Shown: positions 15,949 to 17,951 of the stretch, one piece after another | Layout of the letters: the number at the start of each line of letters is the position of its first letter | Position numbering within the stretch: the stretch's first letter is position 1 | Virus record (IMG/VR): IMGVR_UViG_3300022930_000003 | Length of the DNA stretch: 52,757 bases | Source: a virus | Reading direction: 5' to 3' (one strand) | The notes under the pieces: generated by a model | Databases searched by the model: none | What the model saw: the letters and a program-made list of their open reading frames with translations, nothing else | Told to the model about the DNA's origin: nothing | Translations under genes and position numbers: made by a program

Positions 15949-16114
15949 AGAGTTTCCAAATAACCGCTAGCAAAATCACGAATGACACCACACAAAGAAT
16001 CCATTCAATTTTGCTCATGATGAATTCTTTGTTGAAGTGTTTAACGGCTAGAAATCCCAATACCAAAAGTATTGGGATCAGAAACACGATAGTCAGGAAA
16101 TGTTCATCAATCAT
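15941..16114 (-). CDS. Small two-TM hydrophobic protein (57 aa)
   Basis: My translation is MIDEHFLTIVFLIPILLVLGFLAVKHFNKEFIMSKIEWILCVVSFVILLAVIWKLYA. The stop overlaps the VRR-NUC start. Confidence 0.45.
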   Translation of the reverse strand: MIDEHFLTIVFLIPILLVLGFLAVKHFNKEFIMSKIEWILCVVSFVILLAVIWKLYA

Positions 16115-16203
16115 AATCCCACCATGCTCAAAACTGCCATTACGCCATCAGCAATTGGATTGGCAAACAGGATCAGGCCAATGACGATGATGAGGTCTTT
16201 CAT
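16111..16203 (-). CDS. Possible 30-aa hydrophobic peptide
   Basis: MKDLIIVIGLILFANPIADGVMAVLSMVGL, with ATGA overlaps on both sides. Confidence 0.3.
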   Translation of the reverse strand: MKDLIIVIGLILFANPIADGVMAVLSMVGL

Positions 16204-16397
16204 CATTCCACCTCGACAAACAATGGGCGATTGTCACCCACTGCCATTCTGGTATCTCGCTCAATGCGATAAAAAATCCTGCCTTCGATTTCACTTAAAG
16301 AGCCATCTTCATTTTGAACAAACAAACGCTTTGGAAACCTGAGTGGATTGTGATTAGCGATTGGAACGATTTTTCTATTTGAATAAATATCGGTCAT
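16203..16397 (-). CDS. Hypothetical protein (64 aa)
   Basis: The first 22 codons of track ORF 16203..16463 are encoded by the T-arm and acceptor end of a tRNA-like gene, so I prefer the ATG at 16397 (MTDIYSNRK...). Confidence 0.5.
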   Translation of the reverse strand: MTDIYSNRKIVPIANHNPLRFPKRLFVQNEDGSLSEIEGRIFYRIERDTRMAVGDNRPLFVEVE

Positions 16398-16419
16398 ATA
16401 TTCTTTCGTGATGGGAAAG

Positions 16420-16507
16420 TGGTGCAAATAGTTGGACTTGAACCAACGATTCCACTGAGCCATATTCGGCCAAACAATGGCGGCTTAACCAACTTGCCTA
16501 TATTTGC
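16420..16507 (-). tRNA. tRNA-like gene with an expanded anticodon arm (Gln-UUG-like if 12 nt are removed)
   Basis: Acceptor GCAAATA/TATTTGC, D-arm GGC-AAGTTGGTTAA-GCC, T-arm GTTGG-TTCAAGT-CCAAC, discriminator A and an encoded CCA. The anticodon stem CCATT/AGTGG encloses 19 nt instead of 7. Confidence 0.45.
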
Positions 16508-16513
16508 TTTGAG

Positions 16514-16586
16514 TGCCACTGGAAGGAATTGAACCTCCGACCCACTGCTTACAAGGCAGTCGCTCTACCAACTGAGCTACAGGGGC
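16514..16586 (-). tRNA. tRNA-Thr (anticodon UGU)
   Basis: Hand-folded cloverleaf: GCCCCTG TA GCTC AGTTGGTA GAGC G ACTGC CTTGTAA GCAGT GGGTC GGAGG TTCAATT CCTTC CAGTGGC A. There is one C-U mismatch in the acceptor stem. Confidence 0.85.
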
Positions 16587-16796
16587 ATAATCCCGGCTTC
16601 CACGGTTAGCCGCCAACGTGGCGTCTGCAAAATCACTAGCGGCGAAATCGAAAGGTTTGCTAGCTTTTACTGCCGGTGTTACCCACTACCGGCTTGGGGG
16701 CCGAACAACCACGCTAAAAAAACACAACTATAAACATGTACCGCCTATTACAGCGCTGATCGTGTCGAGCGATTCAGATGTTTGTAGCTGCAAAAC

Positions 16797-16824
16797 TGGT
16801 TCGCAGAGCAGGATTTTAACCTGC
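16797..16824 (-). pseudogene. Degenerate tRNA 3' fragment (T-arm, acceptor 3' strand and ACCA)
   Basis: The minus strand reads GCAGG-TTAAAAT-CCTGC TCTGCGA A CCA. I could find no matching 5' acceptor strand or anticodon arm upstream. Confidence 0.35.
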
Positions 16825-16922
16825 ATGTCCCGACTTCTTTTCATCATGGATTCATCAATCGTCATTGATTACTACCAATCTGGTACGCCGATTCCTTTGT
16901 CTTTTAAGGTATCTGAGAACTC

Positions 16923-16999
16923 TGGTACGCCCAACAGGAATTGAACCTGTAACCGCCGAATTATGAGTTCGGAGCACTAACCAATTGTGCTATAGGCGC
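16923..16999 (-). tRNA. tRNA with anticodon CAU (Met or Ile2-type)
   Basis: Hand-folded cloverleaf: GCGCCTA TA GCAC AATTGGTTA GTGC T CCGAA CTCATAA TTCGG CGGTT ACAGG TTCAATT CCTGT TGGGCGT A CCA. The acceptor stem has two G-U pairs. Confidence 0.85.
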
Positions 17000-17951
17000 A
17001 AAAAAACACAAGGATGATGACTGCACTACTGACTAGAATGTCGTTATCACACTCAATGCCCAGCAATCACCATCCGTGTGCCGCCTCTTGCGAAGCGGTA
17101 ACGGTGGTCTTTGCCAACTGTCAAGGGGCCACTACTCATAGCCTTAACCACCCCCAGGGCGTACTCTTTTTGCCACTGTAATCCAGTGACCGTCTTTCCG
17201 GTCTGCCACCGCCCCGAATAAGGCATCGTTTAGATTTGATCACTACAAGCTGCCAAGGCTTGCTGCGGAATTTAATGCCTAAAACACGCCACGCAATCGG
17301 GTTTTGCCTAAGCTGTCCCAATCTAGCCAAACTATGCGCGAAACATGCGGCGCTCCATGTTCTCTCGTCACTACTACTGTTTCTTAGGTGGCCGGAGATG
17401 ATCCCGGCTTGATTGTAAGTGGCGCAACCAACATCAGCGTTAAAGGTAAGACCGTTGCGCGGCTATATTCCTTTATTCCACTTGCGCATCATCACTGCGC
17501 ATTCACCTAACGACTGCTGATTCAGGTTGAGCACGTCCACAGCAAAATGTATGGAATTCGGCGTTAGTATCAGCATGCGTTAGGTGACTGGTTAAGCCAG
17601 TCAGGCTACTCAATTTATTCGGCAAACACCCACTGAGCTAGGCGCTGAAAATTTCCCCTGTTGGCGCAAGGATAACTGCCTTATTAGCTGAAAACGAAAC
17701 ACTATGCAGGGAGTCCTTGCCTACCCATCGGCCATGCCGTCAGCTTGTTAGCTATTCGGGCTTACAGGGCGGAGCGGTAATTCTGTCGCACTTTGCAGGG
17801 AGTGTTTCGCTTCCATGTGTAGAACTATATCACCAACCAACCTCATCTACACCAAACTATTTTTCTATCGATACTTCTATGTCGATAGGCATTTCAAACG
17901 TGCGGCGTGGCCTGATCCAAAGCCACAGGAGGATAAGCCATGCCCACATGC
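17000..17951. ncRNA. ORF-free, hairpin-dense region; candidate large structured ncRNA(s), class and strand undetermined
   Basis: About 950 nt contain only short Arg/Ser/Pro-rich ORFs. Several perfect or near-perfect local helices are visible: 17070-17107, 17174-17188, 17221-17226/17275-17280, 17246-17262, 17391-17408, 17484-17500 and 17585-17603. Confidence 0.35.

What the first reader, a model, noticed from the sequence alone, without database searches (positions are those of the whole stretch)
16420..16507. tRNA-like gene with canonical acceptor, D and T arms and an encoded CCA, but a 12-nt expansion in the anticodon arm
The minus strand 16507->16420 folds with four standard parts:
- A perfect 7-bp acceptor stem (GCAAATA/TATTTGC).
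- A D-arm with the GG dinucleotide.
- A T-arm GTTGG-TTCAAGT-CCAAC.
- Discriminator A plus CCA.

The anticodon stem (CCATT/AGTGG, extendable by one G-C pair) encloses 19 nt instead of 7. If the 12 nt CCGAATATGGCT are removed after the sixth loop nucleotide (the canonical 37/38 intron position), the loop becomes G-U-UUG-G-C. That has U33, anticodon UUG (Gln) and a purine at 37, and the molecule is 73 nt.

Short non-group-I tRNA insertions are not expected in bacteria or phages. This could be a decaying pseudogene, a tRNA-like regulatory or decoy RNA, or something processed in an unknown way. The 5' end of track ORF 16203..16463 is simply this tRNA's T-arm read as protein.
Basis: partly seen in the sequence, partly recalled or inferred. 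Interest (0 to 1): 0.6.

Follow-up and report, generated by a model that had tools for sequence, protein, structure and literature searches.

The report
Phage tRNA with oversized anticodon loop
A 52-kb phage carries, beside two normal tRNA genes, an 88-base gene with a flawless tRNA body but 19 bases instead of 7 in its anticodon loop, so it almost certainly cannot read codons. No relative was found, and sister phages hold another anticodon-less tRNA look-alike, or nothing, in the same genome slot.

Summary
Rfam's tRNA model scores 16423-16507(-) at 50.1 bits (threshold 29), with every arm canonical and 19 nt in the anticodon loop.

No standard fold was missed. No single excision restores a normal loop:
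- Removing 12 nt gives G-U-UUG-G-C, where G32 and C38 would pair.
- Removing 10 nt (ARAGORN's choice) gives U-U-UGG-C-U, with C37.

The 48 ORFs scanned show no RNA ligase, splicing endonuclease or kinase. The 37/38-intron/Gln reading is therefore not supported.

No homologue turned up in INPHARED, IMG/VR, GTDB genomes or 1.74 Mb of fetched phage loci.

The gene lies in a precise cassette slot between an invariant 22-mer and the ribosome-binding site of the next gene. The slot holds:
- tRNA-Thr plus this element in the window;
- nothing in L295;
- a 125-nt tRNA-like RNA in L202 and L294, derived from tRNA-Leu, with about 61 nt in its anticodon loop.

Best reading (about 0.4): a non-decoding tRNA-shaped RNA processed like a tRNA. 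A recently disabled tRNA (about 0.3) and a short intron (about 0.1) remain open.

Earlier agents of this scan reported similar remodelled phage tRNA look-alikes on other DNA.

The parts
16420..16507 (-). 88-nt tRNA-shaped gene: acceptor 16501-16507 / 16424-16430, D arm 16482-16498, anticodon stem 16476-16480 / 16452-16456, T arm 16431-16447, discriminator 16423, CCA 16420-16422
   Evidence: Rfam tRNA 50.1 bits; ARAGORN; cloverleaf minimum-free-energy fold
16457..16475 (-). 19-nt loop in place of the 7-nt anticodon loop. It contains a possible inner hairpin at 16458-16471 (GGCC / GGCU around GAAUAU), preceded by a UUU bulge.
   Evidence: The inner helix is no more stable than 6-15% of shuffled loops.
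16513..16586 (-). Canonical tRNA-Thr(UGU), 5 nt upstream of the odd gene and in the same cassette
   Evidence: ARAGORN; Rfam 70.7 bits
16923..16999 (-). Canonical tRNA-Met(CAU), first gene of the tRNA/leader region
   Evidence: nearly identical copy in L295
16589..16610 (-). Invariant 22-mer that forms the 5' border of the cassette slot. It is the 3' end of a conserved structured non-coding module at about 16587-16712.
   Evidence: Identical in the window, L202, L294 and L295; covarying hairpins in the module
16395..16419 (-). 3' border of the slot: conserved spacer, ribosome-binding site and ATG (16397-16395) of the next gene
   Evidence: Conserved in the window, L202 and L295; more diverged in L294
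16203..16397 (-). Small downstream gene (64 codons). The ORF-track version 16203..16463 runs back into the tRNA.
   Evidence: Homologues P0122 and P0123 and the L202 gene align only from the ATG onward

Best explanation
The gene makes a tRNA-shaped RNA that does not decode.

How it most likely works:
- It lies on the minus strand in the leader that runs from tRNA-Met through tRNA-Thr into the small genes and the terminase genes. No promoter-like or terminator-like site was predicted on that strand in between.
- Its intact acceptor, D and T arms and its encoded CCA should let the host tRNA enzymes (RNase P, 3' trimming, T-loop modification) release a stable 88-nt molecule. This step is inferred.
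- The anticodon arm is a long irregular hairpin without a 7-nt loop, so the RNA cannot pair with a codon on the ribosome. This follows from the sequence.

I think it is kept for its tRNA shape, as a stand-in or decoy for a factor that recognises the upper half of tRNAs. Host nucleases that attack phage or host tRNAs are the obvious candidates (inferred, untested).

Its origin is most simply a class I tRNA for an A-ending codon (UUG for Gln or UGG for Pro) whose anticodon loop gained 10-12 nt.
For: - **Intact body.** All tRNA body features are present and all 23 stem pairs are kept. Only the anticodon loop is abnormal.
- **No canonical fold or excision.** ARAGORN gives two mutually inconsistent readings, and my enumeration of excisions found no normal loop.
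- **A precise slot.** The gene sits in a defined cassette slot.
- **Slot-mates of the same kind.** The two relatives with a filled slot, L202 and L294, carry there a different tRNA body with about 61 nt in the anticodon loop (Rfam tRNA 41.7 and 42.0 bits).
- **The slot-mates belong to a wider family.** That body's D arm matches 43 IMG/VR loci exactly. These range from normal tRNA-Leu(UAA) to many variants with a replaced anticodon end.
- **Such inserts are otherwise rare.** ARAGORN with introns allowed found them only in L202 and L294, plus the poorly folded L012/L015 call, among 387 tRNA calls in the 340 loci fetched by then, about 3 Mb.
- **The defect is oddly specific.** A 10-12-nt insertion confined to the loop, with no other damage, is what selection for 'keep the shape, lose the decoding' predicts. 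It is an unlikely form of random decay (inference).
Against: - It is a singleton, so there is no conservation or covariation evidence.
- The slot is empty in L295, whose flanks are near-identical, so the cassette is dispensable.
- The inner helix of the loop is not more stable than chance: 6-15% of shuffles do as well.
- Similarity of the loop to the L202 insert or to the L209 tRNA-Ser variable arm is not significant.
- No partner protein or defence context was identified.
Confidence: 0.4

Rival explanations
1. Recently disabled tRNA. A working tRNA-Gln(UUG) or tRNA-Pro(UGG) took a 10-12-nt insertion in its anticodon loop. It now rides along as a neutral passenger with tRNA-Thr in a fast-turnover cassette.
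For: - It is a singleton with no homologue in INPHARED, IMG/VR or GTDB genomes.
- The slot shows presence/absence polymorphism.
- tRNA sets differ widely between relatives, from 0 to 7 genes.
- The loop keeps UUUGG, and CAA and CCA are the phage's most used Gln and Pro codons.
- The inner helix is not significant.
Against: - No single excision restores a canonical loop, because it leaves G32:C38 or C37. At least two events are therefore needed.
- Nothing else in the gene is damaged.
- Long insertions confined to 7 of 76 positions are an improbable kind of decay.
- The closest filled slots hold another anticodon-less tRNA look-alike.
Confidence: 0.3
2. Intron-bearing functional tRNA. The extra 10-12 nt are cut out by host or unknown enzymes and the halves are rejoined, giving a decoding tRNA (Gln UUG in the first reader's version).
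For: - The extra bases lie at or next to position 37/38.
- The arm has a 3-nt bulge followed by a 4-bp helix and a loop, which loosely recalls the relaxed bulge-helix-loop substrates of archaeal endonucleases (my knowledge).
- Introns of unknown mechanism have been reported in Lak megaphage tRNAs (PMC6784885).
- CAA and CCA are heavily used codons.
Against: - The products have non-canonical loops (G32:C38, or C37).
- The borders are ambiguous between programs.
- 12 nt cannot be a group I intron.
- No splicing endonuclease, RNA ligase or kinase domain was found in 48 ORFs.
- Bacteria lack a tRNA splicing endonuclease (established knowledge).
Confidence: 0.1
3. Remodelled class II tRNA. The element descends from an 88-nt long-variable-arm tRNA such as the tRNA-Ser(UGA) that follows tRNA-Thr in L209. 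The former variable-arm hairpin now sits inside the anticodon stem.
For: - Order (Thr, then an 88-nt gene), spacing and length are the same in L209.
- The D stem has 3 bp, as in class II tRNAs.
- The inner hairpin resembles the L209 variable arm in 11 of 13 aligned columns.
Against: - Overall identity to the L209 tRNA-Ser is about 47% by my count, the level of unrelated tRNAs. The body match is 32 of 56.
- The hairpin similarity is reached by 6-11% of shuffles.
- The covariance model of the element finds class I tRNAs (Cys, CAU type) as best matches, not class II ones.
- It would need a complex rearrangement.
Confidence: 0.07
4. Assembly or sequencing artefact that added bases to a normal tRNA gene.
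For: A 4-nt direct repeat (TGGC) lies 10 nt apart inside the loop. No independent copy of the locus could be read.
Against: - The extra bases are not a duplicate of neighbouring sequence: the two 10-nt units match at only 6 of 10 positions.
- Removing them does not give a normal tRNA.
- Such a repeat is expected by chance in about half of 19-nt loops (my estimate).
Confidence: 0.03

Closest known systems
Canonical class I bacterial/phage tRNA (Rfam RF00005)
   Same: Acceptor, D and T arms, tertiary-pair nucleotides, 4-nt variable loop, discriminator and CCA are all present. It scores above the family threshold. The best body matches are phage tRNA-Cys(GCA) and CAU-anticodon tRNAs.
   Different: It has 19 nt instead of a 7-nt anticodon loop, and no usable U33-anticodon-R37 arrangement.
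tRNA-Leu(UAA)-derived phage tRNA look-alikes with a replaced anticodon end: L202:2692-2816, L294:123-247 and IMG/VR relatives
   Same: They have a tRNA upper half with a non-decoding lower half. They occupy the identical genome slot in the closest relatives.
   Different: The body is unrelated (32 of 56 body positions). The window's D arm does not match the family's 22-mer. The insert is much shorter (12 nt against about 54 nt).
'Enigmatic' tRNA introns of Lak megaphages (Devoto et al. 2019, PMC6784885)
   Same: They are insertions in the anticodon region of phage tRNA genes, with no known splicing mechanism.
   Different: By the paper's account, the same Lak intron in the same tRNA is typically identical across cohorts. 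The one case it shows in detail is long enough to fold as a tRNA itself, and copies without that intron exist. Here the insert is 10-12 nt, unique, and leaves a non-canonical loop when removed.
Small stable tRNA-like RNAs of the T4 tRNA cluster (species 1 and 2, rnaC/rnaD) and the 'tRNA-like stable RNAs' annotated in T5 (my knowledge and earlier scan notes; not tested here)
   Same: They are non-decoding RNAs encoded among phage tRNA genes and processed with them. Their function is still unknown.
   Different: No sequence relation was tested or is expected. Those RNAs are larger and less tRNA-like.
Phage tRNAs with altered anticodon loops that escape host tRNA nucleases (van den Berg et al. 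2023, PMC10264068; Azam et al. 2024, PMC11555353)
   Same: They are phage tRNA genes whose anticodon loop departs from the host's, in the setting of tRNA-targeting defence.
   Different: Going by their titles and abstracts, those are decoding tRNAs changed by loop mutations, not loop expansions. A word search of PMC10264068 found no mention of insertions, decoys or tRNA-like RNAs.

Membership tests
tRNA (Rfam RF00005) | Cloverleaf with 7-bp acceptor stem, D arm with G18G19, T arm with T-loop, and a score above the gathering threshold | tested here: met
   50.1 bits against 29, full model 1-71; cloverleaf minimum-free-energy fold
tRNA (functional decoder) | 7-nt anticodon loop with Y32, U33, anticodon and R37 on a 5-bp stem | tested here: not met
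   19-nt loop. No alternative 5-bp stem with a 7-nt loop exists between the D and T arms (my scan). ARAGORN's intron-free fold has 3 pairs plus a G.G mismatch.
tRNA with protein-spliced intron (archaeal/eukaryal type, 37/38) | Removal of the intron gives a canonical anticodon loop | tested here: not met
   All contiguous 12-nt and 10-nt removals were enumerated. The best are G-U-UUG-G-C (G32:C38) and U-U-UGG-C-U (C37).
tRNA with protein-spliced intron (archaeal/eukaryal type, 37/38) | Bulge-helix-bulge motif and a splicing endonuclease plus ligase available | tested here: inconclusive
   Only one 3-nt bulge, a 4-bp helix and a hairpin loop are present. No such enzyme domains occur in 48 ORFs. 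The host is unknown.
Group I intron in bacterial tRNA genes | A ribozyme core of roughly 200 nt or more (P3-P9) | tested here: not met
   The insert is 10-12 nt. Rfam found no intron family in 16100-17800 at E<=1.
Class II tRNA (Leu/Ser/Tyr type) | Normal anticodon arm followed by a base-paired long variable arm | tested here: not met
   ARAGORN's class II fold has a defective anticodon stem and an unpaired 'variable arm'. Compare the genuine 88-nt tRNA-Ser in L209.
Leu-derived phage tRNA look-alikes (slot-mates in L202/L294) | tRNA-Leu(UAA)-type D arm and body, with the anticodon end replaced by an insert | tested here: not met
   The insert feature is met, but the body is not Leu type (32 of 56 to L202). 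The D-arm 22-mer is absent. Searches with the window's own D arm gave only normal tRNAs or a chance coding hit.
YrlA / Y RNA-like tRNA mimics (RF02553) | Match to the family model, Ro60 partner gene, and ends in the stem opposite the tRNA-like domain | tested here: not met
   No Rfam hit other than tRNA in the window. No Ro60/TROVE domain in 48 ORFs. The ends lie in a normal acceptor stem.

The most novel reading that the evidence does not exclude
The 10-12 extra bases are a real mini-intron of a phage that infects bacteria. Host RNases and an RNA ligase, or an unknown activity, remove them to give a working tRNA for CAA or CCA. That would be a new, very short, non-group-I class of bacterial-world tRNA intron.
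Probability: 0.08. Interest if true: 0.8.

Novelty: new variant of a known kind. Interest (0 to 1): 0.4.

Why it matters
Phage tRNA clusters have long been known to include tRNA-like RNAs of unknown function. Recent work shows that hosts attack tRNAs and that phages answer with their own tRNAs.

If this RNA is kept by selection, it would be a minimal example of 'keep the shape, lose the decoding': a complete tRNA body with only the anticodon loop disabled. It would also be easy to test.

The slot comparison is useful in its own right. It shows clean gain, loss and swapping of tRNA and tRNA-like cassettes between an invariant RNA module and the next gene's ribosome-binding site.

If the gene is merely broken, the finding is ordinary.

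Tried and rejected
**Homologue searches**
- Exact-pattern scans of IMG/VR with the 5' half, the 3' half, the D arm, and D-loop plus T-loop at expanded spacing. They returned nothing, or a normal tRNA-Ser, or a chance coding hit.
- The same expanded-spacing pattern in GTDB genomes found one normal tRNA-Ser.
- blastn of the 88 nt against 50,697 phage records at E<=1 found no match.
- Scans for the invariant slot 22-mer in IMG/VR and GTDB genomes found nothing.
- TerL and downstream-gene relatives fetched from Logan/ENA gave the slot comparison but no second copy of the element.
- The look-up of the window's own second contig failed.
- A covariance model of the element, run over 1.74 Mb of loci, found only normal tRNAs.

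**Expression**
Expression and splicing could not be examined.

**Tests of similarity and structure that gave no significant result**
- An antisense or repeat target of the loop within the window: none.
- Shared GGCC...AUGG motif between the loop, the L202 insert and the L209 Ser variable arm: not significant on shuffling.
- Stability of the inner hairpin: not significant.

**Other dead ends**
- Host or genome look-ups: no genome is held for the window or for L208.
- Isotype assignment by nearest body gave weak and inconsistent answers (Cys, CAU-type, class I 'Leu').

Full report
**What is there**

The window is a phage genome or most of one. Pfam finds small and large terminase subunits, portal, capsid, tail, primase-polymerase and sliding-clamp genes.

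Three tRNA-type genes lie on the minus strand upstream of the terminase genes:
- Met(CAU) at 16923-16999;
- Thr(UGU) at 16513-16586;
- the element in question at 16420-16507.

Rfam's tRNA model aligns the element end to end at 50.1 bits. It places 19 nt where a tRNA has its 7-nt anticodon loop.

Read directly, the body is faultless:
- 7 Watson-Crick pairs in the acceptor stem;
- U8, A14, G18, G19 and A21;
- a 3-bp D stem with an A13/A22 mismatch;
- G26/A44 and G15:C48;
- a 5-bp T stem with a TTCAAGT loop;
- discriminator A and an encoded CCA.

The minimum-free-energy fold is a cloverleaf. Its anticodon arm is 6 bp, a UUU bulge, a 4-bp helix and a 6-nt loop.

**No missed standard fold, and no clean intron**

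ARAGORN without introns forces a class II fold. That fold has a 3-bp anticodon stem with a G.G mismatch, and an unpaired 'variable arm'. With introns allowed, ARAGORN removes 10 nt and calls tRNA-Pro(UGG) with loop U-U-UGG-C-U, which puts a pyrimidine at position 37.

I enumerated every contiguous 12-nt removal from the 19-nt loop. Its loop G-U-UUG-G-C has G32 facing C38, which would pair.

I also stepped a 5-bp-stem/7-nt-loop template through the whole region between the D and T arms and found no acceptable arm.

Twelve nucleotides cannot be a group I intron, and Rfam finds nothing else there at E<=1. Pfam scans of 48 ORFs found no RNA ligase, splicing endonuclease or polynucleotide kinase.

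One point favours a decoding ancestry. The loop retains UUUGG, and CAA (57% of Gln codons) and CCA (41% of Pro codons) are the phage's preferred codons in those families. This fits the U34 tRNAs carried by relatives.

**No homologue**

- The 88 nt have no blastn match at E<=1 in 50,697 phage records.
- Exact and gapped patterns found only ordinary tRNAs or chance hits in IMG/VR.
- The gapped pattern found only an ordinary tRNA-Ser in GTDB genomes.
- A covariance model built from the element was run over 1.74 Mb of fetched phage loci. It returned only 75-78-nt tRNAs with 7-nt loops as good matches. The best were tRNA-Cys(GCA) at 55.8 bits and CAU-anticodon tRNAs at about 57 bits.

Conservation and covariation of the expanded arm therefore cannot be assessed.

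**The slot**

Relatives were reached through TerL and through the small downstream gene. Alignment A3, checked on the raw sequences, shows a precise slot.

- Its 5' border is a 22-mer (window 16589-16610) that is identical in all four phages.
- Its 3' border is the spacer, ribosome-binding site and ATG of the next gene (16395-16419).

Between these borders:
- the window has tRNA-Thr plus the odd gene (169 nt);
- L295 has only TTTATGA;
- L202 and L294 have one 125-nt element.

Rfam scores the 125-nt element as a tRNA (41.7 and 42.0 bits), with about 61 nt in the anticodon loop. ARAGORN reads these two near-identical copies as 'Phe(AAA)' and 'Ser(AGA)' with a 49-nt intron. In other words, one of their three differences falls in the supposed anticodon.

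The D arm of this element matches 43 IMG/VR loci exactly. These form a series running from normal class II tRNA-Leu(UAA) to variants whose anticodon end is replaced by 45-128 nt or more. An earlier agent of this scan described this family on other DNA.

Across the 340 loci fetched by then (about 3 Mb, 387 tRNA calls), ARAGORN with introns allowed found anticodon-loop inserts only in L202 and L294. The sole other call, in L012/L015, folds poorly.

So the same slot holds two unrelated tRNA bodies in close relatives, and both lack a usable anticodon loop. That is the main argument that the window's gene is more than an accident.

**Arguments the other way**

- The slot can be empty, so its content is dispensable.
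- The inner helix of the 19-nt loop is matched or beaten by 6-15% of shuffled loops.
- The shared GGCC...AUGG motif, seen in the window's loop, the start of the L202 insert and the variable arm of the 88-nt tRNA-Ser that follows tRNA-Thr in L209, is not significant on shuffling.
- Overall identity to that tRNA-Ser is at the level of unrelated tRNAs.
- The direct repeat TGGC, 10 nt apart, is expected by chance.
- Expression could not be examined.

**Verdict**

The object is real, and it is a tRNA derivative that cannot decode as encoded. My weights are:
- about 0.4: a tRNA-shaped RNA kept for its shape. It would be processed through its intact upper half and might act as a stand-in or decoy for a tRNA-recognising factor. 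This is inferred from the slot-mates and from the specificity of the defect.
- about 0.3: a recently disabled Gln or Pro tRNA riding with tRNA-Thr.
- about 0.1: a short intron.
- the remainder: a remodelled class II tRNA or an artefact.

The known background is tRNA-targeting defence and phage counter-tRNAs (PMC10264068, PMC11555353), and unexplained tRNA introns in Lak megaphages (PMC6784885). Neither describes a 10-12-nt loop expansion.

Interest is moderate. It is a clean and easily testable case, but it is a singleton, and earlier agents of this scan had already reported similar remodelled tRNA look-alikes in other phages.

Noticed in passing
window 16587-16712 (-); L202:2568-2691; L295:3462-3598; L294:1-122: A conserved non-coding module lies directly 5' of the cassette slot. 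It comes in two sequence variants (window/L202 against L294/L295) that share the invariant 3' 22-mer. Two hairpins are kept through double compensatory changes (7 of 20 predicted pairs). It has no Rfam match at E<=1. An earlier agent studied 16587-17951 (e1-3270353).
   Followed up: partly
L202:2692-2816, L294:123-247; IMG/VR loci L297-L339: A 125-nt tRNA-Leu(UAA)-derived look-alike has about 61 nt in its anticodon loop. Its 22-nt D-arm string occurs in 43 IMG/VR contigs. These range from normal tRNA-Leu(UAA) to copies whose anticodon end is replaced by inserts of 45-128 nt or more.
   Followed up: partly
L295:3575-3625 against window 16395-16610: The cassette slot is empty in a close relative. 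Seven bases stand where the window has tRNA-Thr plus the odd gene. The cassette borders coincide with the mature tRNA ends.
   Followed up: yes
L204:4021-4290: A relative with 84% TerL identity carries two 77-nt class-I-length tRNAs with leucine anticodons (UAA and UAG, both with A73). It also carries an irregular 93-nt tRNA-Tyr(GUA) that scores only 36 bits in Rfam.
   Followed up: no
window 16203-16463 (-): The ORF-track start at 16463 lies inside the tRNA loop. Homology and the conserved ribosome-binding site place the real start at the ATG at 16397-16395.
   Followed up: yes
L202:6487-6663 and L203:2627-2803: A 58-residue gene with a ribosome modulation factor (PF04957) hit lies just after the large terminase gene of the closest relative. 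I did not look for a counterpart in the window.
   Followed up: no
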